A DNA stretch of 45,902 nt from an uncultured archaeon (GTDB taxonomy: Archaea; Aenigmatarchaeota; Aenigmatarchaeia; QMZS01). The notes under the pieces are model-generated. The model did no database searches and was not told where the DNA came from. It saw nothing but the letters and a program-made list of their open reading frames with translations. The position numbers were made by a program, and so were the translations under genes. Positions 9,019 to 43,885 of this stretch are shown piece by piece; positions within the stretch are counted from its first letter, which is position 1; each line of letters begins with the position of its first letter. The stretch covers positions 1 through 45,902 of the forward strand of contig CAZLSF010000001.1 in the NCBI GenBank assembly GCA_964562245.1, in the 5' to 3' direction.

Positions 9019-10581
9019 TTACCGTTCAAGAATGTCGAGATGAACTTTAAATTTGTTTTCCAGTTTATCAATTCCTTTCCCTCCTCTACCGATTAATTTT
9101 GCAATTATTTTTTTATTAACATAAATCCTAAAATCTGTTCCTGAAATATGTTCTACTGCAACATTTTTATCATACTTGCTGATCTCCTTTTTTATCTGCT
9201 TGATTTTTTTCCCCACTTCTTTTTCATCAAACTCTTCAATTGGAATAACAATTATTTCGTCCCCGAAAGAATATATTTCATACTCAAGTTTTCCTGTTTC
9301 AAATGATCTAACTTCTATAATAGGTCTTGCAAGGTCAGAATCTCTCATCCCTGTAGGAACTCTTACTATCAAATCCGTGGAATAAACTTCTTCAATTTTA
9401 CCGTCCTTTACAAAAATTATTGTATCCACAATATTATGAAGCATCCCTAGTTCAATTTTGTTGACAAATCTCTGGATTGAATCAATTGGTTGGGAAGCGT
9501 GAATTACACCAACCATTCCAACGCCTGCAAGTCTCAAATCACTGAAAATCTTAAAATCAAAAGAAGTTCTTATTTCATCAAAAATCGTGTAATCTGGTCT
9601 AACCAATAACAATATTTCTGCTGTTTTTGCAAAGGATTTTGCCAACGGGGCGTATTGGGTGATTTTTTCATTCACCTGTAAATCCCTTGGCTGTTCCATA
9701 GTCTTTACAATCTTATTCTGTTTCTGGTAAAATTCAGCCAGACTTGCGGCCAATGTTGATTTGCCGCTTCCTGGAGGACCTGAAATAAGAATGCCTCCAG
9801 CCTCATCGGTTATTCTCTTTTTAAGTTTCTCTGAAAGTTCATAATCATCAATATTCAATTTTGCTATTGGTCGCACAATAGTCATCTCCTTGTCATCTGA
9901 AAACGGAGGTCTTGTGATTGAGATTCTCATATCCTTTATCTGCAAAACCATGGCCCCGTATTCCTCAAATTCAACAAAAGCGAAATTCTTTCCCCGGATT
10001 TCCTTAAGTACGCTGGATGCAAGTTGTTCAAATTTTGATTTTGAAAGTTTCTCTTTTCCAACTTTTTTTAATTCCCATTTGCCGGGGTGTCCTCTTTTTG
10101 CTAAAGTAACGCAATTCACCTTAAAATGCAAAGACATCGTATCTTTCGTGAGTAATTCTAGAAATTCAAGCTCTGCTTTTTTATGCGCAGTTTTAATGAA
10201 TTTTACTTTTACTCCAAAAACTTCCGCAACAAGAGCCTGCACAAAATCTCTTGTGTATAATGTTGCTTTGTGTTTCTGCGCAAGTTCCCTTATCAATGCA
10301 TCAATTCTTCCTTTCTTTGCAAGTTTTATTTCTTCTATTGTTGGCTTCCTCCCCACAAATTCAAGTTTCACATTTCGTTTCCTTAGTTCTTTAATTTCTT
10401 CAAGACCTAAAAAACCAATTTCCTTTCCTTTGTTTGCCTGAGCCTGAAGTTCATCAATAACAAATTCAGGAATAAGAACCTTTACTTTTTTTAATTGTCC
10501 AATATCAATTAATTCAGTAAGCTTTTTTGAAATCAATACTGAAGTATCCGGCACAATTAATTCTTCTTTTCCAAAATTCAT
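9019..10581 (-). CDS. PIN-domain / PilT-family ATPase / KH-domain protein (COG1855-type)
   Basis: N-terminal PIN-like segment (IVPDTSVLIS...IPEFVIDELQ). Walker A is ILISGPPGSGKSTLA. The C-terminal KH motif is IAKLIGRGGKGIDKLE. Confidence 0.85.
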   Translation of the reverse strand: MNFGKEELIVPDTSVLISKKLTELIDIGQLKKVKVLIPEFVIDELQAQANKGKEIGFLGLEEIKELRKRNVKLEFVGRKPTIEEIKLAKKGRIDALIRELAQKHKATLYTRDFVQALVAEVFGVKVKFIKTAHKKAELEFLELLTKDTMSLHFKVNCVTLAKRGHPGKWELKKVGKEKLSKSKFEQLASSVLKEIRGKNFAFVEFEEYGAMVLQIKDMRISITRPPFSDDKEMTIVRPIAKLNIDDYELSEKLKKRITDEAGGILISGPPGSGKSTLAASLAEFYQKQNKIVKTMEQPRDLQVNEKITQYAPLAKSFAKTAEILLLVRPDYTIFDEIRTSFDFKIFSDLRLAGVGMVGVIHASQPIDSIQRFVNKIELGMLHNIVDTIIFVKDGKIEEVYSTDLIVRVPTGMRDSDLARPIIEVRSFETGKLEYEIYSFGDEIIVIPIEEFDEKEVGKKIKQIKKEISKYDKNVAVEHISGTDFRIYVNKKIIAKLIGRGGKGIDKLENKFKVHLDILER

Positions 10582-10615
10582 AATTTATCTAAATAAATTA
10601 AAAGATATAAAGAAA

Positions 10616-18023: not shown

Positions 18024-18881
18024 ATGCTTCAGAATTATATTAAAAGAATTTATTTATCTTATGGTGAAATTGCAGAACAAATTTCACCTCATTTCAAATA
18101 TGTATTGGAAGACCTCAAAAAAAGCGGATTGAAATATACTCTTGAAGAATATCTTTCCCTTGCAATTTTTATATCCTTGATAGTTTTTGTGGTTGAACTC
18201 CCAATTATAACTCTAACTTTATCTTTTTTTATTCATGTTGTTTTTGCTATTTTACTTTCCTTTATTTTCTCTTTTGCAGGAGCAATAATCATTTTTTTTC
18301 TTTTTACCACTTATCCAAAAGCGCAGGTCAGTAATTTAGCCTCAAAAATAGACAAAGGCTTACCTTTCTCTGTTAGTTATATGACTGCAGCAGCCAGTTC
18401 TGATGCTCCACCAATCACAATTTTTAAAGCAATTACAAAGTTAGATGAATATCCTGAATTAAAAGATCAGGCTCAAAATGTGATAAGGGATGTAGATGCT
18501 CTTGGGATGGATATATTAAGTGCTTTGAGAAGGGAATCAAAAAGAACCCCATCTAAAGAATTTAGAGATTTACTCTTTGGAATAGAATCAACCATAAGTT
18601 CAGGCGCGGATTTAACTCTTTTTTTAAACAGCAAATCAATTTCTTTGTTCAAATCTTACCAGAGAAAAATTAAAGCTTATGCTAATACCTTATCTATGAT
18701 TATAGAAATGTATATTACAGTAGTAATCGTTGGTCCAATTTTTTTCACAATTTTATCAAGTGTAATGAGTATGATGGGTGGAGTTGAAAATGCACTTGCA
18801 ATGCAGGTTTTGGTTTCTTTTATATTAATGCCCGCGATATCTGTAATCCTTGCTTTTTATATCAATATGGCTTCACCATGA
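18024..18881 (+). CDS. type IV pilus/archaellum platform protein, single T2SSF domain (FlaJ/TadB-like, first half)
   Basis: TM-rich. The T2SSF cytoplasmic domain reads KGLPFSVSYMTAAASSDAPPITIFKAI...ELKDQAQNVIRDVDALGMDILSALRRESKRTPSKEFRDLLFGIESTISSGADL. Confidence 0.8.
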   Translation: MLQNYIKRIYLSYGEIAEQISPHFKYVLEDLKKSGLKYTLEEYLSLAIFISLIVFVVELPIITLTLSFFIHVVFAILLSFIFSFAGAIIIFFLFTTYPKAQVSNLASKIDKGLPFSVSYMTAAASSDAPPITIFKAITKLDEYPELKDQAQNVIRDVDALGMDILSALRRESKRTPSKEFRDLLFGIESTISSGADLTLFLNSKSISLFKSYQRKIKAYANTLSMIIEMYITVVIVGPIFFTILSSVMSMMGGVENALAMQVLVSFILMPAISVILAFYINMASP

Positions 18882-19852
18882 AAACCAAAAAATTTTTAAA
18901 AGGAAAACTAACAAAAACTCAAGAGATTTTATTATATTCTGCAATAGGATCTCTTGCTGTCATCCTATTTGGGCTGGTTCTTTCTTTATCATTTGCCAAC
19001 TTTAATATTTTGTTAAACTTTTTTGTTTTTGCGGTTTTTGTTTTTGTTTTACCGTTTTTCTTTTACAGATATATACATTTCCTGGAAATAAAAGACTGTG
19101 AAAAAAATATCCCTATATTTTTTACTGATTTGAAAGAAATTAAAAAGAGCGGAGTTTCTTTTCCAGAAGCAATTAAATCCTGTAAAGGCGATTATGGAAA
19201 ATTAAATAAATATATAGAAAAATTAAAAAAAGATATAAGCTGGGGAATTAGCATAGATTCCAGTTTAAAACAAATGCAAAATAGTTTGGGTGAAAGTAAA
19301 GTTTCATCAAGAGCTATTTCAACTTTATTAGAAACTTACAGGTCTGGAGGAAATATGGAAGATATTTTGGAAACTTTAATAACCTCTTTGCTCAAAATAA
19401 TGGAAAGTGAAAAAGACAAAAACTCAATGATGCAACAACATGTATTTATAATGTATGGTATTTTTTTGATGTTCGTTGGATTAATAATTGCTCTTGGAAA
19501 TTTTTTAATTCCTATGTTTTCTGAAATGGGAGGAACTGAAACAGGATTGGGTAATATTCAATTAATGCAAGCGAAGTCTCCTTGCCTTGCTTGTTATGAT
19601 CCTTTTTGTTATGGTCTTTGCGGTTATTATAACCTTATTGGAGGAATGTTTGGTTTTGGAGAGCCAAATTCACTGCCCGTATACTACAAATCCTTGTTTT
19701 TTACAATGGTTCTTATCCAGGGATTTTTTACCGGATTAATTGCCGGGCAGATCTCAGCAAAAAGTTGGTTGGAAGGAATAAAACATGGTTTGATTATGTT
19801 TTTCTTGGGATTATTCATTATAGTTATGGCAAATCTTGTTGGTTTCTTTTAA
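18878..19852 (+). CDS. type IV pilus/archaellum platform protein, single T2SSF domain (FlaJ/TadC-like, second half)
   Basis: Its start overlaps the upstream stop (ATGA at 18878-18881). The T2SSF domain reads IPIFFTDLKEIKKSGVSFPEAIKSC...ISWGISIDSSLKQMQ...TLLETYRSGGNMEDIL. A Cys-rich loop (SPCLACYDPFCYGLCGYY) sits between the C-terminal TM helices. Confidence 0.8.
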   Translation: MKTKKFLKGKLTKTQEILLYSAIGSLAVILFGLVLSLSFANFNILLNFFVFAVFVFVLPFFFYRYIHFLEIKDCEKNIPIFFTDLKEIKKSGVSFPEAIKSCKGDYGKLNKYIEKLKKDISWGISIDSSLKQMQNSLGESKVSSRAISTLLETYRSGGNMEDILETLITSLLKIMESEKDKNSMMQQHVFIMYGIFLMFVGLIIALGNFLIPMFSEMGGTETGLGNIQLMQAKSPCLACYDPFCYGLCGYYNLIGGMFGFGEPNSLPVYYKSLFFTMVLIQGFFTGLIAGQISAKSWLEGIKHGLIMFFLGLFIIVMANLVGFF

Positions 19853-19853
19853 A

Positions 19854-20405
19854 ATGATGAAAAATAAAGTTTGTAACTATAAATCTAAAAAGAGAATAAA
19901 ATTGATGGTTACAAAGTTTAAAGGACAGGTAAATATTTATTTTATTATCAGTACTATTTTGTTCGTCTCTCTTTCAATTTATTTAATTTCGATTATTATA
20001 GAAATATATCCAACACATCAAAATGATATATCTTCTGATGTTTGGTATTCTAAAGCATATTCAGTTTCTGAATTATTAATAAAAGATTCTGGTTATCCAA
20101 AAGACTGGGATGAAACTAATTTTGAAAGAATCGGGCTTGCTTCTGAACCTTACTCTTTAAATTCAACAAAAATTAATGAATTTGAGAAAATATGTAATTC
20201 AACAACAAACTTAACAAAAATTCAAAAATTTAGAGATTCTTTTGGATTGGAGAATAATAATTTGGTTGTTGAAATTAATTATTTAAACAATACAAATATA
20301 ATAAAATGTAAGCCTACGGGTGAAAAAGTTGGTGCAACAGCGCGTATAAAAAGAATTGCAACTCTAAATAATAAATTTGTAGAAGTGATTGTTTATGTCG
20401 GGTAA
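19854..20405 (+). CDS. pilin-like protein with class III signal peptide
   Basis: The ORF-track start at 19836 is TTG. ATG codons occur at 19854 and 19905. The sequence ...MVTKFKG|QVNIYFIISTILFVSLSIYLISIII is a basic-Gly cleavage motif followed by a hydrophobic helix. Confidence 0.55.
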   Translation: MMKNKVCNYKSKKRIKLMVTKFKGQVNIYFIISTILFVSLSIYLISIIIEIYPTHQNDISSDVWYSKAYSVSELLIKDSGYPKDWDETNFERIGLASEPYSLNSTKINEFEKICNSTTNLTKIQKFRDSFGLENNNLVVEINYLNNTNIIKCKPTGEKVGATARIKRIATLNNKFVEVIVYVG

Positions 20406-20469
20406 AAGATTTATTTTGACAACTGAAGTTTAGTTAAACTAAGTGATAATTTATAAATTAGTTGAGCTA

Positions 20470-20952
20470 ATGGAATTTATTATGAACAATGAGGAAAAAT
20501 TAATTTTGAGAGCAATTCTTTTGATAATTCCTTTAATCTTTCTCTCCTCTTTTCATTTTGAACTTCAAGTTTTTCACCAGGTTTTTTTTTCACATGTTAT
20601 CTGGTTTTTGGAGTTATTTGGTATCAAATCTCAAGTTCAAGGATATCAAATAATAACAAAAAATTTCTCGTCAATAATAACTTTTGACTGCACCGGATGG
20701 AAACAGTTTTATATTTTTTGCACCTTAATATTCTTACCTTTAAGAATTAAACTTTCAAGCAGACTTAAAGGTTTATTATTTCTAATTCCTTTATATTTTT
20801 ATAACATTTTTAGAGTGATTATTACAATTTATATTAGTTCCATTTCTTATTCCTGGTTTAAACCAGTTCATTATTTCTTATGGAATTTTTTGTTCCTTGC
20901 CCTGATCTTTATTTTCTGGTTTTTTTGGTATCAACACATGAAAAAGAATTAA
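20470..20952 (+). CDS. minimal archaeosortase/exosortase-family-like membrane protein
   Basis: Polytopic membrane protein. It has IITFDCTGWKQ (Cys codon at 20689-20691), then PLYFYNIFRVIITIY 41 residues later (Arg codon at 20812-20814), then KPVHYFLWNF (His codon at 20869-20871). This matches the xxCSG ... NxxR ... H layout of exosortase/archaeosortase cores. The track start at 20443 is GTG; I use the ATG at 20470 (an alternative ATG is at 20482). Confidence 0.6.
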   Translation: MEFIMNNEEKLILRAILLIIPLIFLSSFHFELQVFHQVFFSHVIWFLELFGIKSQVQGYQIITKNFSSIITFDCTGWKQFYIFCTLIFLPLRIKLSSRLKGLLFLIPLYFYNIFRVIITIYISSISYSWFKPVHYFLWNFLFLALIFIFWFFWYQHMKKN

Positions 20953-21045
20953 TTACAAATTATCCAGATAATTCTAGAAAAATCAAAATAAAAAATTCTC
21001 AAAAATGTTGGCAATTATAATTAAAAACAAAATAACAGAAAAATT

Positions 21046-24000
21046 ATGAGGAGGCATTATTTTAGTCAAAAACAGGCTTTATTAATATGTTTTACATTAA
21101 GTTTTTTTCTTCTTCCAGCAATATCATTAGCAACATGCTGTACTGAGTTACTATCTTCTTGTCCATATGGAAATGTGGATGGCAATAGTTGTAATAATGT
21201 TAGTATCGGATCTTATTGTGAAGGTGATGGTGAATGCGGAACAGATAATAATGCAAATAATTGTAATGTATGGGATTGGTACAAGCGGGTATGTTGTGAT
21301 AATGGTGTTAGTTGTTCTGTAGATGGAGATTGTTGTTCAGGCAATTGCGTGGATGGTTATTGCTGTGATTCTGCCTGCAATGGTGCTTGTGAAGCCTGCA
21401 ATGTAGCGGGACATGAAGGAACTTGCACAGATGATCATTCTTTATGTAGTGGAACAATTTCTTCCTGCTATTGTAGTGGTGGAGTTTGCCAACCTTGTAC
21501 TGACCCAGGAGGTTGCAGTTATGCAACTTGTATAGGTCATACTTGCGGAACTGCAGATTATGGGACATCTCATGAATGCAATTCAGCTTGGAAATGTTCT
21601 ACATCTACAGGGGATGGTAACTACGGAGTTGGAAGCGGAAATTACAAATGCCAAGGATATTGCGATGGGTCTGGGAATTGTGATTACGCTGGAAACTGCT
21701 ATAATTGCAATGACGATAATTATTATTATTGCGAAACAGGAAATAATAAATATTACCAGGATTATGATTGCTCTGGTGGAACTTGTGTAAAAGACACTCC
21801 TTCTTTTCGAAAAGATTGTGATGATTATGACGATGATAATTGTTGGTTAGTTTGTGATACTGGAACTGGAGATATAGATAGGTGGTGTGATGATTGGTAT
21901 TGCAATAGTGGAACATGTAAAGATTCTGGAAATAACTGGCTCAGAGATAATCCTTATAGTGATTGTTCAGATACAGCAAGTGATAATGATGGAGGAGATA
22001 AACCAAAGACATCAGGAACTTGCACAGATTATGAACTCTGTACCTCTGGAGATACTTCCTGTCCCTCCACAGATTATCCAGATAATTGTGCCTCTACAAC
22101 ACATTTAGAAGAATATTATCCTTACTCCAATGATTGCACTTCAAAAGATTATTATTGCAGTGATTTTGAAGTTGCAGCAACAGACTCCTATGGAGATGAT
22201 CCTACCTACACAGAAACTTGCTATGGTGGAATAGGGGCTTCTTGTTCTTCTAACCAATTTGTAACCTCTTCTCAAAGTGATTTTACAGATCACTGTACCG
22301 GAACTTGCGGAACAGGGATAGATTCTTGTTATTTTATAGAATACTATCCTGCTGATTCAGGAGATGCTTGCTCAGGGAATGATTACTGCAAACCAAAAAA
22401 TTATGATGCAGATCATGAAAGCAACACTTGCAATGCATGTGGATTAAATTGGAATCTTGATTGTTCCTTTGGGGATTGCTCTCCTTCTGAATCTTCAAGC
22501 AAAGAGGTCGGTACAACTTACACTTATAATTACTGTTGTGGGGATGATGCAAGTGAATATGCAATAACTTGTTCCTGTAACTTAAATTCCTGTTCTTCTG
22601 ACAGCACAGATGCCTGCTGCGCAAATTCAGATGATTGTGTCTGGGCAGGTGGGTGTTATTTAAATGGAAATACTACCGACATAGATTCTGATGGAATAGA
22701 TGAATATTGTAAAGGTAATGAAAATAAATGGTATGCCTATCCAAATATTACTTCAATTTCTATAGATAAATCCCCAATAGACAGAGATGATGAAGTAGAT
22801 AAATTTACACCTGACACTGAAATAAAAATTACAGCAGAAATTTATGATCAAGATAATAACGACAGGGATAAAGTTTATATAACTATTTACGAACCAGATG
22901 GAGTAACAATTGCAAAAGACCAAAGTGGAACATCTATAAATTCAAAACTTATGATCTGTTCTGATACAAATTCAAATCATTGGAGTTGCTATTATAATTA
23001 CAACCCAGAAGATGGTTCTCCTATTAGAGATTATGATGTAAAAATAAAAGCTGTTGATAACGAGGGTTTGGAAGATACAAAAACAGAAAGTAATTTATTT
23101 AAAGTTGAAGATATTTATTTAACTAATATGAATCACTATGGAACAACAAAAGATTTGCACATAACAGGAACAGCAAAATATACAACTTATGATACTACAG
23201 TCTCCGGGGCAAATGTAAAATGCTATGCTGAAGACAAAATTTGTTCAACAACCACAGATGGTGGTGGAAACTTTGATTGTAATATAGGGGAACTAAACAA
23301 AAATTTTGCACAGTATAATACAATAAAAACAAACACTTTTATCTGCGAGGTTATGGATATTTATAATATTGCGGGTAGTAGGACTTATAATATAACTATC
23401 GGATTGCGGGCTACAACTCACACCTGGAATGACACAACCCTTTATCATGATGAAACAGTAAGTTTTAATGTTACTTTTAAAAATGTTGGGGATTTAACTT
23501 TTGCAATGGATGACTTATATTGGGAAATCAGTTCTGAAAATGGAACCAACCCGGAAATAAACGAAGATTGTCATAACACAGGCTGGGTAGATGCATGTGG
23601 ATATTTAGGGAAATATGAAGGAGATCCGCATAATTCTTGTGGATGTTATATTCAGTTTGACCAAAACTTGGTTCCTGGAAACACAGTTACTTATTCTGGT
23701 TCCTGGAAAGCAAAATATCATGAATTTGGAGATTATAATTTTAGTGTTTGGGTAGAGTTTCCAGATAATGAAACTGGTTTTACAAATATCGTTGCCGGAC
23801 AAAAAATAAAGACAATTAAAATATTAGATAAATCGCCAGTAAATCTAACCTTTATGTTTGCTTTGCCTTCCCCTGTTGATAGAGATAAAGAAACATCCAA
23901 GACAAATGATAATATTACAATAAGAGTCAATGCAACTGATTATGTTGATGGAGTTCTTGGCGATAATGATGAATTAGAGCAATATTCTACAATTTGGGTG

Positions 24001-25821
24001 AAAAGTGATCAAAACAATAATTGGATGATCTGCGAAAATGTAACAATGAACCAGATTCCTTATCATAATGCATATTATTACGGGAACTGCACTTGGAACC
24101 CACCTAATGATATGTCTGATGTTGATTTAGGTAATTTTAGTGTTAAGTTCAAAGTTCTTGGGTATGGAAGTTATCATGATATTGTAGGGGAAGGTTACAA
24201 TATTTCTGATTACTCTGAAAATACAGACAAATTTGTTGTTGAAGATATTGATATATCAAATATTGCTTGGTCCTTTGGAAACACAACAGATTTAATTTTT
24301 ATAGGAAATGCAACCTACCTTTCAAATAATCTAAGAATTAACAATATAACAAATCAAACTTGCAGCCAGCCCATAATTTTAGATATTCCTGATGGAAATG
24401 AAAATACAAGAGAAAATATAAATCCGCCAGATTCAAGACTTTGTGGGATTAATTCTTTTGCGCAAGATATAACTTGCACTGTAATAAATGGAAATTTTAG
24501 TTGTTATGTCAGAAATATTAAGCTGAATGATACAACAGTTACTTTTTCCTATATTTTAACTGATGAAAAAAATATTTCAGGAAACGAAGACCTAACGATC
24601 AATTTAAACGGAACAATAGATGATTTTATCAATATAAGTGATCCGGATGGATTTGTAAATATTTATCAACCAATTAATTATACAATAAATTTCTCAAACA
24701 CAGGAAACATTGGATGGTTTGGAGAGATTTCTAATCAAACAAGAATAAAAATCTATTCTCCTGCTGGAGAAAATCCTGTAATTCCCTCGCAAGAGCATAT
24801 TTCTTTAGATTGTGATAACAATAGTTCCTGGGTGAATTTGATGAATGGAACAACCAGTAATTTTTCGCATTTCTTGGGTCATTCTTATTATGTTCTGGGA
24901 AAATATAATTATATAACAAATTTAAGTTATTTCTGGTCTGATTCTTTACATAGTATAAATTTCTCTATTACAACAGGAGGAAAAACAAACTACACGGTTG
25001 CAGCAATAGATATTACAGATTATAATTTACCCAACAAAGTTGTTAGAGGAAACCAGATTATAGGAAAAGCAAAGGGATATTTTGTTGGTTCAATGGATAT
25101 AGGTTATTGGGAAGAAATTCAAGGAGATGCATTTAAAGTTACAAACAACACAACAAATGCAATATATTGGGTTGAGAAATGGAATAAAACTTCAAAAATA
25201 GGAACAGAAATTCCAGAAACAAACATGACCTGGAATCCTGGTTTTTGGGAAGGTAAAATAAATACCTTTGATTTAAGTTGTGATGATGAAACAACAGTTC
25301 ATAGAGTTTATTTCCTGATTAACTGGACAGATTTTAATATTTATACCCCTTATGTAAAAGGAGAATTTAAATCAGAATTCTGGCCTTATTTTTATCAAAA
25401 TTTAAGTGTGATCTGTACCTCAAGAGAATTATTTGAAGTTAATCCAGAAATTACGAATGTTGCTCTAGGAACAGAAAATAGAGATATTTATAATATTTTT
25501 ATTGAAAATCCAAGTGACAGTCCAGTTGATATAAACCTGACAATAAATTGTGATGATTACCCTGATGCTGTAAATTGGGTAAATGAAAATCATTGGACTA
25601 TTCATATTCCTGCAGAGAGTTCTACTTCAAAAATAGTTACCTTAGACGAGGCTCCAAGAGTTGGTAACTATGAATTTTCTGTATCGGTAAGAGGAGACCT
25701 AAGATATGACAAAAAAGTCTGGTTGAATATTTTCTCAGAAGCGTTGGGTTCTGATAGTTTAGTTTATCTTCTCTTATTATTTTTCATGACTTCTATTTTA
25801 TTGATTAAAAGAAAATTATGA
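21046..25821 (+). CDS. giant (1591 aa) secreted Cys-rich, heavily sequon-decorated surface protein with C-terminal anchor/sorting-like tail
   Basis: Signal peptide MRRHYFSQKQALLICFTLSFFLLPAISLA. There are 71 Cys between residues ~31 and 560 by hand count. One DIDSDGIDEY Ca-binding-type motif is present. Two large beta-rich super-repeats follow. I count more than 30 N-x-S/T sequons. The C-terminus reads ...SEALGSDSLVYLLLLFFMTSILLIKRKL. Confidence 0.9.
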   Translation: MRRHYFSQKQALLICFTLSFFLLPAISLATCCTELLSSCPYGNVDGNSCNNVSIGSYCEGDGECGTDNNANNCNVWDWYKRVCCDNGVSCSVDGDCCSGNCVDGYCCDSACNGACEACNVAGHEGTCTDDHSLCSGTISSCYCSGGVCQPCTDPGGCSYATCIGHTCGTADYGTSHECNSAWKCSTSTGDGNYGVGSGNYKCQGYCDGSGNCDYAGNCYNCNDDNYYYCETGNNKYYQDYDCSGGTCVKDTPSFRKDCDDYDDDNCWLVCDTGTGDIDRWCDDWYCNSGTCKDSGNNWLRDNPYSDCSDTASDNDGGDKPKTSGTCTDYELCTSGDTSCPSTDYPDNCASTTHLEEYYPYSNDCTSKDYYCSDFEVAATDSYGDDPTYTETCYGGIGASCSSNQFVTSSQSDFTDHCTGTCGTGIDSCYFIEYYPADSGDACSGNDYCKPKNYDADHESNTCNACGLNWNLDCSFGDCSPSESSSKEVGTTYTYNYCCGDDASEYAITCSCNLNSCSSDSTDACCANSDDCVWAGGCYLNGNTTDIDSDGIDEYCKGNENKWYAYPNITSISIDKSPIDRDDEVDKFTPDTEIKITAEIYDQDNNDRDKVYITIYEPDGVTIAKDQSGTSINSKLMICSDTNSNHWSCYYNYNPEDGSPIRDYDVKIKAVDNEGLEDTKTESNLFKVEDIYLTNMNHYGTTKDLHITGTAKYTTYDTTVSGANVKCYAEDKICSTTTDGGGNFDCNIGELNKNFAQYNTIKTNTFICEVMDIYNIAGSRTYNITIGLRATTHTWNDTTLYHDETVSFNVTFKNVGDLTFAMDDLYWEISSENGTNPEINEDCHNTGWVDACGYLGKYEGDPHNSCGCYIQFDQNLVPGNTVTYSGSWKAKYHEFGDYNFSVWVEFPDNETGFTNIVAGQKIKTIKILDKSPVNLTFMFALPSPVDRDKETSKTNDNITIRVNATDYVDGVLGDNDELEQYSTIWVKSDQNNNWMICENVTMNQIPYHNAYYYGNCTWNPPNDMSDVDLGNFSVKFKVLGYGSYHDIVGEGYNISDYSENTDKFVVEDIDISNIAWSFGNTTDLIFIGNATYLSNNLRINNITNQTCSQPIILDIPDGNENTRENINPPDSRLCGINSFAQDITCTVINGNFSCYVRNIKLNDTTVTFSYILTDEKNISGNEDLTINLNGTIDDFINISDPDGFVNIYQPINYTINFSNTGNIGWFGEISNQTRIKIYSPAGENPVIPSQEHISLDCDNNSSWVNLMNGTTSNFSHFLGHSYYVLGKYNYITNLSYFWSDSLHSINFSITTGGKTNYTVAAIDITDYNLPNKVVRGNQIIGKAKGYFVGSMDIGYWEEIQGDAFKVTNNTTNAIYWVEKWNKTSKIGTEIPETNMTWNPGFWEGKINTFDLSCDDETTVHRVYFLINWTDFNIYTPYVKGEFKSEFWPYFYQNLSVICTSRELFEVNPEITNVALGTENRDIYNIFIENPSDSPVDINLTINCDDYPDAVNWVNENHWTIHIPAESSTSKIVTLDEAPRVGNYEFSVSVRGDLRYDKKVWLNIFSEALGSDSLVYLLLLFFMTSILLIKRKL

Positions 25822-26429
25822 ACCATAGAAAATTTAAGGGGGTGTCGCCAATAATTTCTTCTATTTTAATAATTGGAATTCTTGCGATAATTACTGGAAT
25901 TGCTTATCAATGGGGAATGCCAATGATTCAAAAAAACATTGATATAACAACTTTAAATAAAGCCGAAAATTTTCTAAGGAAATTAGATAATTCAGTCTCT
26001 GATATTGCAAAAACGGGAGGAACAGAGGAATTGATTTTTAATCTACCCGGAGAAATTAATATAAATCCAGAGAATAATACAATAAAATTCTCTCTAAAAA
26101 CCAGTGGGAGTATTTATATGCAAGGAGGTATTGTTTGTTTTAGCAGGAATTGCAATTTAACAGAGGGCACTTGGGGGAAAGATTCTTATTCTGTTATTAA
26201 CGCCCAAGTAGATCAGTTTGAAGAATACGCAACGATAACGACTTACTCAATCATATATAGAAATCTCACAAGAGGAGAAGGATTTAATAAAAAAATATAT
26301 CTTCTGGATATTGTAACTCCCGGAAATGCAACCATTGTTGGTTCTGAAAATTCCAGAATTTCAATTGAAAAAATTGGTGAAGAGAGGGGGGATGTAACAA
26401 AAACTATTATCAAATTAGATATCAAATAA
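25818..26429 (+). CDS. archaeal type IV pilin-like protein (class III signal peptide, DUF361-type N-terminus)
   Basis: MNHRKFKG|VSPIISSILIIGILAIITGIAY. The start overlaps the stop of the giant gene (ATGA at 25818-25821). Confidence 0.8.
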   Translation: MNHRKFKGVSPIISSILIIGILAIITGIAYQWGMPMIQKNIDITTLNKAENFLRKLDNSVSDIAKTGGTEELIFNLPGEININPENNTIKFSLKTSGSIYMQGGIVCFSRNCNLTEGTWGKDSYSVINAQVDQFEEYATITTYSIIYRNLTRGEGFNKKIYLLDIVTPGNATIVGSENSRISIEKIGEERGDVTKTIIKLDIK

Positions 26430-26529
26430 AAAATTAAGTTGTAAACTTAAATAAAGTTTTCAGAAATTAATCCAATAAAATGTAGTATTAGATGAAAATG
26501 TGAGTTAGTTATAAACTATAAAATAATTT

Positions 26530-27834
26530 ATGGTGATTAAAGAATCTACTAAAAGCAATAACAAAGGATTTGTTAGGGTTATAGAAATTGTAATCTTTTC
26601 TTTTATTTTGTTTGTCTTACTCATGCCAACTTTCTTTTATTATTCTAATATAAATGATTGGAACAAAGCAAATGGTTTGTTGTTGTGTAATGATTTGCTT
26701 TATTCAATTGAAAAAAACAAAACTTTTGATAATGTTTTAAATCCTTTTGTTGAAAATTCAGATTTTTCTGGAGAACATCAAAAAGATTTGGAGTTGCTGA
26801 AAAATATTACTGATAGAGTCTTTCCGGTTGCTGTTGATTTTGACTATGAGATAAAAAATATCGCTCCTTACGAAATTTCTATTGGGTGTAATTGCACTCA
26901 GAGTCAGATAGACTGGCTAAATAAAGAAATTTTGACTCCAAGTTATCCAACAGTAAAATTCCCAATTAAACAGGTAAGTTTGAATAATTTATCCTCCGAA
27001 TATAATTTGTTTATTATTTTTGATAAAGTTAATTTATCCAAACCAAACATTAAATCAAATATTACCGCAATGCTAAAGAAAGGAAAAGGTTTTGTCTTAA
27101 TCAGAAATTTTTTATCTGATCCTGATCAATTTACAAAAGAACTCTTTGGTATTGATTTTTCTGGTGTTGGTTTCTCCACAAATAATTTGAGTTTTAATAA
27201 TTTATCAACTCCAAAAACAGCAGGAATTGCAAAGAGATTTATAAACAATCTAATTAGGATTAATCTATCTAATGGAAAAGGTATCTTGCAACTCAGAAAT
27301 GAAAGATTTGAAATAAATGCAACAAAAAATCACGTAAATATATCTGATTGCTCACTTTCTCAAGGAGATAGTTGCATACTTTCTGGAATTGCGAACATAA
27401 CTTTATTTCAAATTGATCCTCTTGATATAGATTGGGTGAGGGCAGATTTTGAGGAGTGGATAGACTTAAAAATTTCAGGAACTTCAAATCCGAGAGATTA
27501 TAGTTTTTATGACACTTTCCCGCTAAATGTTAATAAAAATAATTATACTATCTTATCATTTGGAACAAATACTGCTACAAATGCAAAAATTTTAAAAAAA
27601 TATTCTAAATCCTATGAAAATGAACCAAGGACTTTCTGGATTTATGATTATAACCAAACAAAAGATGACTTAAATTTACTTTTAAAAACAGGAATTATCT
27701 GGACCTCTGGAGAACACTATTTTGTATTTGACAAAAAAATTACAGATGAAAGAAATTATTGCCAGCATTTTTATTCAGGTCTAGACGAAAATAATATACC
27801 TTTTTTAGTTAAATTATATTTCTTTGGTTATTAA
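26530..27834 (+). CDS. large pilin-like/pseudopilin-like protein (434 aa) with N-terminal class III-like signal
   Basis: MVIKESTKSNNKG|FVRVIEIVIFSFILFVLLM. Gly-Phe followed by a Glu at +6 resembles bacterial prepilin sites. The rest is unrecognised and sequon-rich. Confidence 0.5.
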   Translation: MVIKESTKSNNKGFVRVIEIVIFSFILFVLLMPTFFYYSNINDWNKANGLLLCNDLLYSIEKNKTFDNVLNPFVENSDFSGEHQKDLELLKNITDRVFPVAVDFDYEIKNIAPYEISIGCNCTQSQIDWLNKEILTPSYPTVKFPIKQVSLNNLSSEYNLFIIFDKVNLSKPNIKSNITAMLKKGKGFVLIRNFLSDPDQFTKELFGIDFSGVGFSTNNLSFNNLSTPKTAGIAKRFINNLIRINLSNGKGILQLRNERFEINATKNHVNISDCSLSQGDSCILSGIANITLFQIDPLDIDWVRADFEEWIDLKISGTSNPRDYSFYDTFPLNVNKNNYTILSFGTNTATNAKILKKYSKSYENEPRTFWIYDYNQTKDDLNLLLKTGIIWTSGEHYFVFDKKITDERNYCQHFYSGLDENNIPFLVKLYFFGY

Positions 27835-41969: not shown

Positions 41970-42389
41970 TTACTGAATTATTGGGATAAATTGAGTTTTC
42001 CCCTTGCACTCGACAACCTCCACCATAAATCCCTTTATATCCTCATAATTATTCTCTATTATATCTTTATCAAAAGTTATCTCAGTTGGAGTATTTGCTT
42101 CAAAAGGACCTTTTATTTTTTTTATAAAAGCTTTTTGATTAGTGCCAAGAAAAATATAAAGATTATACGCATTTACGCTGGTTCCTATGTTTTGCACAGT
42201 AAAGGTACCCGCATCATAATCATAGTTGTAATAAGTCAAATCCAATTTACTGCAGGTTTCCATAGATCCGAGTTCTGATTGCGTGTAGTTCATAGCCCAA
42301 GTTCCTACAATTGCCGCAATGGCTACACTAATAACTATTAGAAGTACGCTTGCGACTATAGGAGAAATTCCCTTTAACCCTTGCAACAT
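41970..42389 (-). CDS. archaeal type IV pilin-like protein (class III signal peptide, DUF361-type)
   Basis: MLQGLKG|ISPIVASVLLIVISVAIAAIVGTWA. Confidence 0.8.
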   Translation of the reverse strand: MLQGLKGISPIVASVLLIVISVAIAAIVGTWAMNYTQSELGSMETCSKLDLTYYNYDYDAGTFTVQNIGTSVNAYNLYIFLGTNQKAFIKKIKGPFEANTPTEITFDKDIIENNYEDIKGFMVEVVECKGKTQFIPIIQ

Positions 42390-42727: not shown

Positions 42728-43885
42728 ATGGACATATACGAAAGATTGAGGAAAAGAAAAATATCCGAGAGCAATAAAAGAGTTATTAAGCAATTTATTA
42801 AGAATAGAGAAAGTGAAGGAATACAGGAAAGGAGATTATCAAAGTATGAATATATGTTGTCTGTTTTTGCGGGAGTTGTTAAAAAGGATATTTCTAAAGT
42901 TGGTGAAAAAGATCTAAGAAAATTCACAACATGGTTATTGGAACAGAAATTATCAGAGAACACAAAAATAACTTTTAAGATAGTTATAAAAACTTTCTTT
43001 AGAAACTTTGTATTTGGTGGTGAACTGCCAAAAAAGTTTAGAGAAATTCTGAAAGCAAAAAGGATTACAAACAATCTAACTCCTCAGGATTTATGGTCTA
43101 TGGAAGATATACAAAAATTACTTAATCAAACTCAAAATATAAGAAGAAAGGCTATGATAATGGTCTTATTTGAGGGGGGATTGAGAGCTGGTGAATTGCT
43201 ATCTCTTCGTGTAGGTGATATTGAGTTTACAAATTGGGGTTGCAGGATTTTTGTTCCGGAATCAAAGACAAAAACAAGAAGTCTGCCTTTATTTAATTCT
43301 GCTCCTTTGTTAAGTCAATATTTAAGAACTCATCCTAAAAGAGAAGATAAAACTATTTCCCTTTGGCTTAATGATAAAGGTAAACCTATGAAATATCCTG
43401 CTTTAAGAAAAATGCTAAATGATTTAAAAGATAAGGCAGGTTTCCAAAATAAGAGAATATTTGCTCATTTACTCAGGCACTCAAAACTTACAGTTTTATC
43501 TCAGCAACTAAAATCAGCAGAGTTAAAAGAATTTGCAGGATGGACTTCCATAAAAATGGTGGATACTTATTCTCACTTAAATTGTGAAAATGTAGAAGAG
43601 AAACTATTAGAACAACAGGGAATTAAAATTAAGAGTAAAAAAGAAATATATAATCCAATAAAGTGTCCGAGATGCAATCAACAAAATGAATATAATGCTA
43701 AATACTGTAATTCCTGTGGGTTAATTCTTGGAAAAACAGCAATAGAGGAAGTGAAGAAAATAGAAACTTTAGATAACCTAAGTACTGAAGCCTTAAAGAA
43801 AGAAAATGTTCGGGAAGCCTTTAAAGAAGCAATAAAGGAATTGATTAAAGAGAATCCTGATATTTTGAAAGGATTAAATTTATAA
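42728..43885 (+). CDS. tyrosine recombinase/integrase with C-terminal zinc ribbon
   Basis: Catalytic set: GGLRAGE (Arg), SKTKT (Lys hairpin), HLLRHS (HxxR), GW, and MVDTYSHL (Tyr). The C-terminal extension carries CPRCNQQNEYNAKYCNSCG. The gene starts 60 nt after the tRNA-Thr(UGU). Confidence 0.9.
   Translation: MDIYERLRKRKISESNKRVIKQFIKNRESEGIQERRLSKYEYMLSVFAGVVKKDISKVGEKDLRKFTTWLLEQKLSENTKITFKIVIKTFFRNFVFGGELPKKFREILKAKRITNNLTPQDLWSMEDIQKLLNQTQNIRRKAMIMVLFEGGLRAGELLSLRVGDIEFTNWGCRIFVPESKTKTRSLPLFNSAPLLSQYLRTHPKREDKTISLWLNDKGKPMKYPALRKMLNDLKDKAGFQNKRIFAHLLRHSKLTVLSQQLKSAELKEFAGWTSIKMVDTYSHLNCENVEEKLLEQQGIKIKSKKEIYNPIKCPRCNQQNEYNAKYCNSCGLILGKTAIEEVKKIETLDNLSTEALKKENVREAFKEAIKELIKENPDILKGLNL

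What the first reader, a model, noticed from the sequence alone, without database searches (positions are those of the whole stretch)
25735..25821. C-terminal tripartite tail on the giant protein lacks every named archaeosortase motif
The protein ends ...NIFSEALGSDS-LVYLLLLFFMTSILLI-KRKL. That is a short polar segment, a ~16-residue hydrophobic helix and a basic cluster. This is the architecture of PGF-CTERM, PEF-CTERM, PIP-CTERM, VPXXXP-CTERM and PEP-CTERM signals, but none of those signature motifs precedes the helix.

If the adjacent sortase-like protein processes it, the recognition motif (perhaps within SEALGSDS) would define a new sorting-signal class. No other protein in this window has the same tail.
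Basis: inference. Interest (0 to 1): 0.7.

Follow-up and report, generated by a model that had tools for sequence, protein, structure and literature searches.

The report
Candidate new archaeosortase sorting tail
The giant surface protein ends in a conserved domain, short motif, membrane helix and basic tail that diverse proteins of one group of tiny uncultured archaea share, and it is probably the unrecognised target signal of the small archaeosortase-like enzyme encoded next to it, although cleavage has not been shown.

Summary
The 1591-aa protein (21046-25821) ends ...VWLNIF-SEALG-SDSLVYLLLLFFMTSILLI-KRKL. No NCBIfam C-terminal sorting model matches this tail or 18 related tails. No other protein in the window carries it.

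The tail is not unique and not stand-alone. A full HMMER search found 21 protein clusters. In these, the tail caps a ~105-aa beta-sandwich on at least four different passenger architectures. The consensus is W-L-N-[VI]-x-[ST]-[ED]-[AS]-[VIL]-G, then a helix, then K/R. In a confident AF2 model, WLNIF is the last strand and SEALG is a 5-residue loop abutting the helix.

The upstream gene (20482-20952) is an exosortase/archaeosortase-family protein: it passes TIGR04178 but no named subfamily. Cys83, Arg124 and His143 are invariant. Every organism name recovered for either family is Aenigmatarchaeota. Enzyme and tail protein lie within 10 kb in three different gene arrangements, and on two contigs of one MAG.

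Best reading (about 0.5): a new archaeosortase/signal pair inside a type IV pilus-like locus.

Main rival (about 0.3): a permanent TM anchor whose juxtamembrane motif serves the pilin-like partner gene that overlaps its stop codon.

Cleavage, lipid attachment and strict genome-wide co-occurrence remain untested.

The parts
18024..18881 (+). FlaJ/TadC-like membrane platform protein, first half (T2SSF domain)
   Evidence: Pfam T2SSF 46.8 bits. NCBIfam ArlJ/FlaJ and UpsF partial matches. Syntenic in L001, L002 and L013/L021.
18878..19852 (+). FlaJ/TadC-like platform protein, second half (T2SSF domain). It overlaps the previous gene by 4 nt.
   Evidence: Pfam T2SSF 47 bits. Gene spacing.
19836..20405 (+). 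Pilin-like protein with a class III-type signal (…KFKG|QVNIYFIISTILFV…). It always precedes the sortase in the pilus-linked arrangement.
   Evidence: Sequence. Homologs lie directly upstream of the sortase in L001, L002, L013 and L020-22. No Pfam or NCBIfam hit.
20482..20952 (+). Mini archaeosortase/exosortase-family protein. The ORF opens at GTG 20443; homologs start at the Met at 20482. Proposed catalytic residues are Cys83, Arg124 and His143 in ORF numbering.
   Evidence: TIGR04178 scores 37.4 bits against a cutoff of 23. All named subfamilies fall below their cutoffs: pacearchaeosortase 32 vs 80, XrtX 29 vs 170, ArtE 19 vs 95, ArtB 17 vs 150. Pfam EpsH scores 25.5 vs 25.7. C83, R124 and H143 are invariant in 11 homologs at 43-82% identity. 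The AF2 model shows five helices plus a beta-hairpin before Cys83.
21046..21132 (+). Sec-type signal peptide of the giant protein (29 aa), followed by a conserved CCTELL.
   Evidence: Sequence. The L002 ortholog starts MRKIVIILAFFIYASGIVLGS|CCTELL.
21046..25821 (+). Giant secreted surface protein, 1591 aa. It has a Cys-rich N-terminal third and sequon-rich Ig-like repeats, then the C-terminal module.
   Evidence: 72 Cys in residues 1-560; 42 sequons. Orthologs of 847-2329 aa.
25420..25734 (+). Conserved C-terminal beta-sandwich domain (residues 1459-1563). Its last strand is RYDKKVWLNIF, and WLN lies at 25720-25728.
   Evidence: AF2 with an 18-sequence alignment gives mean pLDDT 92, with strands up to module residue 105. 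Invariant residues are W, A, R, G, Y and N. Foldseek finds only generic Ig-like, MG and PapD-like folds. No Pfam family matches.
25735..25749 (+). Juxtamembrane loop SEALG (residues 1564-1568). This is the candidate signature motif [ST]-[ED]-[AS]-[VIL]-G.
   Evidence: It is coil in the AF2 model, between the last strand and the helix. Weighted column frequencies are S/T 0.92, E/D 0.77, A/S 0.87, V/I/L 0.85 and G 0.92 (alignment).
25750..25806 (+). Hydrophobic transmembrane helix SDSLVYLLLLFFMTSILLI (residues 1569-1587).
   Evidence: Helix 111-132 in the AF2 model. Conserved positions are [SN]-x-[NS]-[LI] and L-x-L-L-F.
25807..25821 (+). Basic cluster KRKL plus the stop codon. The stop overlaps the ATG of the next gene (ATGA).
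25818..26429 (+). Pilin-like 203-aa protein with a class III-type signal (…KFKG|VSPIISSILIIGILA…). It shares a 4-nt overlap with the giant's stop codon.
   Evidence: Pfam DUF7289 gives a weak hit. Homologs sit directly downstream of the tail-bearing gene in L002, L006-8, L014 and L017, whose passengers differ between loci. The 4-nt overlap (gene coordinates) holds for the window, L006-8 and L014.
26530..27834 (+). Second pilin-like protein (434 aa, …SNNKG|FVRVIEIVIFSFILF…).
   Evidence: The only ortholog found is in L002.

Best explanation
The tail is the membrane-proximal end of a lineage-specific C-terminal module: a beta-sandwich, then the loop S-[ED]-[AS]-[VIL]-G, then a transmembrane helix, then a Lys/Arg cluster. 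Aenigmatarchaeota attach this module to several kinds of secreted surface proteins. It is most likely the cognate sorting signal of the small archaeosortase encoded just upstream.

Proposed course of events:
1. The giant protein is exported by Sec through its N-terminal signal peptide.
2. It is held transiently in the membrane by the C-terminal helix, with the basic cluster inside (inferred).
3. The archaeosortase then acts. Its Cys83 and His143 are predicted to lie at the outer membrane boundary, level with the SEALG loop. It cleaves in or next to that loop and, by analogy with ArtA and PGF-CTERM, replaces the helix with a lipid anchor (inferred).

Shown here: the architecture; conservation of the motif on different passengers; the enzyme's family membership and invariant residues; the shared narrow taxonomic range; and repeated gene proximity.

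Inferred only: recognition, cleavage and lipid transfer.
For: (1) All 19 aligned tails are tripartite and terminal.

(2) The stretch W-L-N-[VI]-x-[ST]-[ED]-[AS]-[VIL]-G is conserved about as well as the structural core. N is 100% and G is 92%. G and S are among the 16 most informative columns of the module. Yet SEALG is a loop outside the fold that abuts the helix without a spacer. Haft describes that geometry for PEP-, PGF- and GlyGly-CTERM.

(3) The module occurs on at least four passenger architectures: the giant Cys-rich family, a NosD-like beta-helix protein (P0028), the P0030/31/33/34 family, and the 296-aa P0032. 10 of 11 complete members have signal peptides.

(4) The enzyme passes the TIGR04178 signature cutoff. 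Cys, Arg and His are invariant across 11 homologs. The Cys-to-Arg spacing is 41, the same as ArtA C173 to R214.

(5) Proximity in independent arrangements:
- consecutive and co-directional in the window, L001 and L002;
- convergent, separated only by the pilin-like gene, in L006-8, where the sortase is 59% identical;
- 8.7 kb apart in L013/L021, with a different passenger;
- on two contigs of one MAG, JAUXEA01 (GCA_030620695.1).

(6) Both families are tiny. There are 13 clusters in 5.8 billion proteins for the sortase and 21 representatives in 1.84 billion for the tail. Every source name recovered for either is Aenigmatarchaeota.

(7) No other protein with a conserved-motif tripartite tail was seen around the sortase genes.
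Against: - From memory, all named exosortase and archaeosortase motifs contain Pro. This one does not.
- Homology never stops at the tail. It always includes the ~105-aa beta-sandwich, so Haft's criterion that pairs share only the signal is not met.
- Three members carry 25-28-residue Lys-rich cytoplasmic extensions after the helix (P0020, P0023, P0031). That is more typical of a permanent anchor.
- One member (P0019) lacks the S-E-A-x-G motif.
- In five sortase lineages the gene follows a GAPDH gene or lies elsewhere, with no tail protein in the available flanks (L003/4/19, L005, L009, L011, L024).
- In L014, L015 and L016 no sortase lies within 10 kb of the tail protein; the L012 contig, only 4.7 kb long, also holds none.
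- Multiple tail proteins within one genome could not be demonstrated.
- Only five residues separate a folded domain from the membrane, which could restrict access.
Confidence: 0.5

Rival explanations
1. The tail is a permanent type I transmembrane anchor. The conserved juxtamembrane motif and beta-sandwich serve to dock the surface protein onto the type IV pilus-like apparatus, for example onto the pilin-like protein whose gene overlaps its stop codon. The archaeosortase acts on something else.
For: - A homolog of the 203-aa pilin-like gene lies directly downstream of the tail-bearing gene in the window, L002, L017, L006-8 and L014. This holds even where the passenger is an unrelated 296-aa protein. 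A 4-nt overlap (ATGA read in the window) is seen from the gene coordinates in the window, L006-8 and L014.
- Other pilin-like genes, a T2SSE ATPase or T2SSF genes surround the tail proteins in L012-L015 and L017.
- Long Lys-rich cytoplasmic extensions occur in three members.
- Neighbouring surface proteins in L006, L018 and L015 use C-terminal TM plus KRK tails without any shared motif, so plain TM anchoring is common in this lineage.
- The sortase is absent from half of the tail-protein loci.
Against: - An apparently active archaeosortase would be left without any visible substrate in these small genomes.
- The enzyme is itself inserted in the same pilus-like locus, directly before the tail protein, in two lineages.
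- A passive linker would not be expected to keep S-[ED]-A-[VIL]-G at module identities of 23-35%.
Confidence: 0.3
2. The archaeosortase acts as a transpeptidase. It moves the giant adhesin from its helix onto a pilin-like subunit instead of a lipid. The adhesin would then be covalently displayed on a type IV pilus-like filament, a functional analogue of sortase-built pili in Gram-positive bacteria.
For: - The gene order is T2SSF, T2SSF, pilin-like, sortase, tail protein, pilin-like, pilin-like, all on one strand with overlaps or gaps of at most 100 nt.
- This order is conserved in L002.
- The sortase sits immediately beside the pilin-like/tail-protein gene pair in L006.
- Whether archaeosortases are one-step transpeptidases is still an open question.
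Against: - No archaeosortase or exosortase is known to use a protein acceptor (from memory).
- Most sortase homologs sit next to a GAPDH gene, away from any pilin gene.
- There is no direct evidence of any kind.
Confidence: 0.08
3. The tail is removed or shed by a different membrane protease, such as a rhomboid or another intramembrane protease, which recognises the small-residue motif A-x-G-S at the helix start. The archaeosortase would be unrelated to it.
For: - The motif is rich in small residues at the helix N-cap.
- A rhomboid-like gene fragment (…AHIAHIGGAIVG…) lies convergent to the tail protein in L012.
- GlyGly-CTERM/rhombosortase is a precedent for a Gly-based signal.
Against: - It is a single occurrence on a 4.7-kb contig.
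- No rhomboid or CPBP protease gene lies in the window or in the other loci near tail proteins (and the gene tables).
- This reading does not explain the repeated proximity of the sortase.
Confidence: 0.05

Closest known systems
ArtA / PGF-CTERM system of Haloferax volcanii (archaeosortase A)
   Same: - A polytopic Cys/Arg-dependent membrane enzyme of the same superfamily (TIGR04178).
- A Sec-exported surface glycoprotein substrate with motif, TM helix and basic cluster at the extreme C-terminus.
- The motif abuts the helix.
- The Cys-to-Arg spacing of 41 residues is identical.
   Different: - The enzyme is about half the size (157 aa) and scores below every named subfamily cutoff.
- The motif is S-[ED]-A-[VIL]-G, with no Pro-Gly-Phe.
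- There is no Thr/Ser-rich linker. The motif follows a folded beta-sandwich directly.
- An equivalent of ArtA Arg253 was not identified.
- The lineage is DPANN, not Euryarchaeota.
- Cleavage is untested.
Mini archaeosortases and exosortases with dedicated or few targets: pacearchaeosortase NF033505, ArtE TIGR04124, ArtB TIGR04144/VPXXXP-CTERM, XrtH, XrtX
   Same: - Size is about 155-170 aa.
- These are the best-scoring named models for the window enzyme and its homologs.
- Enzyme and target are encoded by consecutive or nearby genes, which matches Haft's description of 'dedicated systems'.
   Different: - All scores are far below the curated cutoffs: 32 vs 80, 19 vs 95, 17 vs 150, 22 vs 86 and 29 vs 170.
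- None of the corresponding C-terminal signal models hits the tails.
- Here the signal sits on several architectures and always together with a beta-sandwich domain.
Loki-CTERM and Heimdall-CTERM archaeal sorting domains (NCBIfam NF033507, NF045529)
   Same: These are archaeal C-terminal helix plus basic cluster domains. They are the only sorting-domain models to give any signal on the tails.
   Different: The matches are sub-threshold (at most 12.5 bits against 19.9; E of 0.08 or worse). They cover only the hydrophobic and basic part of the model (positions 5-24 of 27), not the signature motif.
Ordinary C-terminal type I transmembrane anchors of archaeal surface proteins
   Same: An N-terminal signal peptide, a single C-terminal helix and a cytoplasmic basic stop-transfer cluster. 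Neighbouring proteins in related loci have exactly this, without any motif.
   Different: Plain anchors do not normally keep a conserved juxtamembrane motif across different proteins. Nor do they normally travel with an archaeosortase gene.

Membership tests
Exosortase/archaeosortase superfamily (enzyme, 20482-20952) | Match to the family signature model TIGR04178 above its curated cutoff | tested here: met
   37.4 bits against a cutoff of 23, covering residues 79-162. All 11 homologs match. Pfam Exosortase_EpsH scores 25.5 against 25.7, which is borderline.
Exosortase/archaeosortase superfamily (enzyme, 20482-20952) | Near-invariant Cys, Arg and His proposed as the catalytic residues | tested here: met
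   C83 (FDCTGW), R124 (YNxxR) and H143 (HYFLW) are invariant in 11 sequences at 43-82% identity. The Cys-to-Arg spacing of 41 equals ArtA C173 to R214. Whether the three residues cluster in 3D could not be measured. An equivalent of ArtA R253 was not found.
Exosortase/archaeosortase superfamily (enzyme, 20482-20952) | Polytopic integral membrane protein | tested here: met
   The AF2 model (pLDDT 73) shows helices 2-36, 42-58, 84-97, 104-135 and 140-168. Read with the positive-inside rule, this puts C83 and H143 at the outer boundary (inference).
Named archaeosortase/exosortase subfamilies (ArtA-E, pacearchaeosortase, XrtH, XrtX …) | Score above the subfamily's curated cutoff | tested here: not met
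   The best is pacearchaeosortase at 32.3 bits against 80. Others: XrtX 29 vs 170, XrtH 22 vs 86, ArtE 19 vs 95, ArtB 17 vs 150.
Named C-terminal sorting domains (PGF-, PEF-, PIP-, VPXXXP-, PEP-, Loki-, Heimdall-CTERM and others in NCBIfam 20.0) | HMM match above cutoff, or presence of the signature motif | tested here: not met
   There is no hit above cutoff for the window tail or for any of the 19 tails. There is no Pro in the motif region.
Tripartite C-terminal sorting signal (Haft criteria) | 1) Location at or very near the C-terminus | tested here: met
   In all 19 tails the helix ends 3-28 residues from the C-terminus, and within at most 11 residues in 16 of them.
Tripartite C-terminal sorting signal (Haft criteria) | [quoted passage not shown] | tested here: inconclusive
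   Only one tail protein per contig was seen. One was found in MAG JAUXEA01, but with a narrow search pattern. P0015 and P0016 have near-identical tails on different bodies and may be paralogs, but their genomes could not be traced.
Tripartite C-terminal sorting signal (Haft criteria) | [quoted passage not shown] | tested here: inconclusive
   N is 100%, G 92% and S/T 92% before the helix. However, the homology domain starts about 105 residues earlier, and the invariant N lies in the last beta-strand.
Tripartite C-terminal sorting signal (Haft criteria) | 4-5) A hydrophobic helix followed by a basic cluster | tested here: met
   The cluster is mostly Lys rather than Arg. The genomes are 26-50% GC.
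Tripartite C-terminal sorting signal (Haft criteria) | 6) N-terminal signal peptides on most members | tested here: met
   10 of 11 complete members start with a short basic segment plus a hydrophobic segment. This was judged by eye; no predictor was run.
Tripartite C-terminal sorting signal (Haft criteria) | 7) Pairs of members share nothing but the signal | tested here: not met
   All members also share the beta-sandwich. Upstream of that domain, at least four unrelated architectures exist.
Tripartite C-terminal sorting signal (Haft criteria) | Alternative for dedicated systems: enzyme and target regularly encoded by consecutive or nearby genes | tested here: inconclusive
   They are nearby in 3 of 8 sortase lineages and share a MAG in a fourth. 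They are not nearby in the rest, where flanks are often short.
Tripartite C-terminal sorting signal (Haft criteria) | Proteolytic removal of the helix and attachment of a new anchor | not testable with these tools
   This needs proteomics or a reconstituted assay.

The most novel reading that the evidence does not exclude
The mini-archaeosortase, the beta-sandwich/SEAxG/helix module and the overlapping pilin-like gene form one DPANN-specific machine. The sortase cuts giant Cys-rich adhesins off their membrane helix and couples them covalently to a type IV pilus-like filament or its base. That would be an archaeal counterpart of sortase-assembled pili, used by an episymbiont to attach to its host.
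Probability: 0.08. Interest if true: 0.85.

Novelty: new variant of a known kind. Interest (0 to 1): 0.6.

Why it matters
Archaeosortase systems have been characterised experimentally only for ArtA/PGF-CTERM in haloarchaea. The full-text searches found no paper linking a sortase to Aenigmatarchaeota.

If the pairing proposed here is real, three things follow:
- It would extend the system to a DPANN lineage.
- It would add a signature motif without proline, fused to a dedicated beta-sandwich.
- It would give a simple sequence handle (an HMM of the module) for listing the surface proteins of uncultured Aenigmatarchaeota. These include giant Cys-rich proteins that are obvious candidates for host attachment.

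The consistent embedding in type IV pilus-like loci also suggests a link between sortase-type processing and pilus-like surface structures that can be tested.

Tried and rejected
- **Word-index protein search.** Searching with the giant's last 373 aa found nothing. Searching with the 18-sequence module profile found only one protein. Full HMMER found 21, so the misses are a tool limitation and say nothing about rarity.
- **The search for related loci with the full module alignment.** The 7-sequence subset used a narrow peptide pattern, so the genome scan (2 loci) undercounts the family.
- **Metagenome scan with the sortase alignment.** It returned only loci equivalent to ones already held.
- **Viral-contig scans for both families.** Both were empty.
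- **Known sorting-domain HMMs, and Pfam on the module.** Nothing was found.
- **Foldseek of the module.** It gave only generic Ig-like, MG, PapD and MSP folds, with no informative relative.
- **Tail conservation against the rest of the giant.** The tail is more conserved than average (53-74% against 27-34%) but is not the most conserved segment. This comparison alone does not prove a signal.
- **The 1032-aa protein next to the sortase in L009.** It was considered as a possible substrate and rejected, because it has no C-terminal helix.
- **Pilin-like neighbours as sortase substrates.** Rejected, because none has a C-terminal helix.
- **Literature searches.** Searches for pacearchaeosortase and for sortases in Aenigmatarchaeota found nothing relevant.
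Full report
**1. The observation**

Bases 25735-25821 encode SEALGSDS-LVYLLLLFFMTSILLI-KRKL plus a stop codon. This is the end of a 1591-aa ORF at 21046-25821.
- The protein begins with a Sec-type signal peptide.
- Its first 560 residues contain 72 cysteines.
- The rest contains 40 of its 42 N-x-S/T sequons.
- This fits a large secreted and probably glycosylated surface protein.

A hydropathy scan of every ORF of at least 100 aa in the window finds no other protein with a terminal helix plus K/R. The only other hit is the polytopic sortase-like protein itself. No NCBIfam C-terminal sorting-domain model matches the tail. The best is Loki-CTERM at 11-12 bits against a cutoff of 19.9, and only over the hydrophobic and basic part.

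**2. The neighbouring genes**

All genes from 18024 to 27834 lie on the + strand, with 4-17-nt overlaps or gaps of at most 100 nt. In order they are:
- two T2SSF-domain halves of a FlaJ/TadC-like platform protein;
- a pilin-like protein;
- the sortase-like gene;
- the giant protein;
- two more pilin-like proteins with class III-type signals (KG|VSP…, KG|F…).

The sortase-like protein passes the exosortase/archaeosortase signature model TIGR04178 (37.4 bits against a cutoff of 23). It falls far below every named subfamily: pacearchaeosortase 32 vs 80, XrtX 29 vs 170, XrtH 22 vs 86, ArtE 19 vs 95 and ArtB 17 vs 150.

Thirteen homologous clusters exist among 5.8 billion proteins. In an alignment of 11 of them (43-82% identity), Cys83, Arg124 and His143 are invariant. 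The Cys-to-Arg distance of 41 residues equals that between the essential Cys173 and Arg214 of Haloferax ArtA.

An AF2 model (pLDDT 73) shows five helices and a beta-hairpin just before Cys83. By the positive-inside rule, I infer that Cys83 and His143 lie at the outer membrane boundary.

**3. The tail is part of a conserved module**

A full HMMER search of 1.84 billion cluster representatives with residues 560-1591 returned 21 proteins. Eight of them (152-888 aa) match only the last ~130 residues. In all members the C-terminus reads [KR]-x-[VA]-W-L-N-[VI]-x-[ST]-[ED]-[AS]-[VIL]-G-[SNG]-x-[NS], followed by about 17-20 hydrophobic residues and a Lys/Arg cluster.

With the last 150 residues removed, the proteins fall into at least four unrelated groups:
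- the giant Cys-rich family;
- a NosD-like beta-helix protein;
- the P0030/31/33/34 family;
- a 296-aa protein.

AF2 on the 18-sequence alignment gives a confident model (pLDDT 92):
- a beta-sandwich whose last strand is RYDKKVWLNIF;
- a five-residue coil, SEALG;
- a helix running from SDS to the end.

Weighted column statistics put the invariant Asn, the Gly (92%) and the Ser/Thr (92%) of this stretch among the most informative columns of the whole module. Foldseek finds only generic Ig-like folds. Pfam and NCBIfam have no model for the module or for any of the tails.

The tail is therefore conserved and shared, but it is never a stand-alone 25-30-residue signal.

**4. Association with the sortase**

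| Loci | Arrangement |
|---|---|
| Window, L001, L002 | Sortase gene immediately precedes the giant gene |
| L006-8 (sortase 59% identical) | Sortase convergent with, and 1 nt from, the pilin-like gene that follows an 847-aa tail protein |
| L013/L021 | Sortase follows T2SSF and the pilin-like gene, as in the window; a tail protein with another body lies 8.7 kb downstream |
| MAG JAUXEA01 (GCA_030620695.1) | Sortase on contig 5, an 853-aa tail protein on contig 10 |

Every organism name recovered for either family is Aenigmatarchaeota. Sortases and tail proteins both occur in low-GC (0.26-0.33) and in ~0.44-GC contig groups.

Against a strict link:
- Five sortase lineages have no tail protein in the available flanks. 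In four of them the sortase directly follows a GAPDH gene; in L009 it lies elsewhere.
- Loci L014, L015 and L016 have no sortase within 10 kb of the tail protein, and the L012 contig (4.7 kb) holds none.

**5. A second regular neighbour**

A homolog of the 203-aa pilin-like protein lies directly downstream of the tail-bearing gene in the window, L002, L017, L006-8 and L014. This includes the locus where the tail protein is only 296 aa. The gene coordinates give a 4-nt overlap in the window (read as ATGA), L006-8 and L014. Other tail-protein loci contain further pilin-like genes and a T2SSE ATPase.

The module is therefore tied at least as tightly to a type IV pilus-like apparatus as to the sortase. 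Neighbouring surface proteins in L006, L018 and L015 carry terminal helix plus KRK tails without any common motif. Plain TM anchors are evidently also used in this lineage.

**6. Interpretation**

Haft's criteria for a C-terminal sorting signal are met for position, helix, basic cluster and signal peptides. They are ambiguous for the signature residues, for multiplicity per genome and for gene adjacency. They are not met for 'nothing shared but the signal'. The geometry (motif abutting the helix, with no spacer) matches signals cleaved by membrane-embedded enzymes.

An intact archaeosortase in these small genomes needs a substrate, and this is the only conserved-motif candidate seen. I therefore favour a new archaeosortase/signal pair (about 0.5).

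The main rival is a permanent anchor whose juxtamembrane motif serves the pilus-like apparatus (about 0.3). Supporting it are:
- the pilin-gene coupling;
- three members with long Lys-rich cytoplasmic extensions;
- one member (P0019) without the motif;
- from memory, the absence of proline, which all named motifs of this enzyme family contain.

Two minor rivals remain. One is transfer of the adhesin onto a pilin-like subunit (about 0.08), which is the most novel reading. The other is processing by another protease such as a rhomboid (about 0.05; a single rhomboid-like fragment in L012).

**7. Novelty and verdict**

The enzyme is a new subfamily of a known family. The tail would be a new signal class with an unusual composition and an attached domain, so this is a new variant of a known kind. 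The full-text searches found no paper linking a sortase to Aenigmatarchaeota and no use of the term pacearchaeosortase. The searches that pair archaeosortase with DPANN or with sorting signals returned reviews and papers on other systems.

Interest is 0.6.

Noticed in passing
window 21133-21150; L002 about 10567-10584: Directly after the signal peptide, the giant protein and its L002 ortholog share CCTELL (…AISLA|TCCTELL; …IVLGS|CCTELL). This is a near-lipobox context, so the protein might also be lipid-anchored at its N-terminus.
   Followed up: no
L003 8998-10471; L004; L011 5405-6999; L019; L024; L005 (adjacent, not overlapping): In most relatives the sortase homolog directly follows a GAPDH gene, overlapping its end in all but L005. 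This looks like the ancestral position. Only the window/L001/L002 and L013/L020-22 lineages have the sortase inside the pilus-like locus.
   Followed up: partly
L012 4371-4619 (-): A rhomboid-like C-terminal fragment (…VAHIAHIGGAIVGLIYG…) lies convergent with the beta-helix tail protein P0028.
   Followed up: no
L006 13834-15117 (-); L018 2292-3560; L015 8637-10004: Neighbours of the tail proteins end in a helix plus KRK/KR but lack the SEAxG motif (for example …ENILYVVAVIVSLILISLLGYLFMKRK). This is a second, motif-less kind of C-terminal anchor in the same loci.
   Followed up: partly
P0015 vs P0016: A 2329-aa and a 694-aa protein have nearly identical tails (…VYLNIFSEALGSNNL.YLLLLF…ILLIKRNYEQ) and identical starts of the module, but divergent middles. 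They may be paralogs with a recombined or homogenised tail, but their genomes could not be traced.
   Followed up: partly
module alignment: About 91% of modules carry a two-Cys insertion (…C……C…) between strands. The window lineage and its closest relatives lack it.
   Followed up: no
window 41970-42389 (-) and 42728-43885 (+): An archaeal type IV pilin (Pilin_N) lies next to a tyrosine integrase that has a RelB-like C-terminal piece. This may be the edge of an integrated element.
   Followed up: no
window 9019-10581 (-) and 2699-4486 (+): One gene encodes a PIN domain fused to a T2SSE-like ATPase. Another encodes a 595-aa protein with an MtrA (methyltransferase subunit A) domain, which is unexpected in a small DPANN-type genome.
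   Followed up: no
tools, vs 32: The word-indexed protein search missed almost all homologs of the giant's C-terminal region that the full HMMER search found, including a 75%-identical one. Negative results from that index should not be read as absence.
   Followed up: yes
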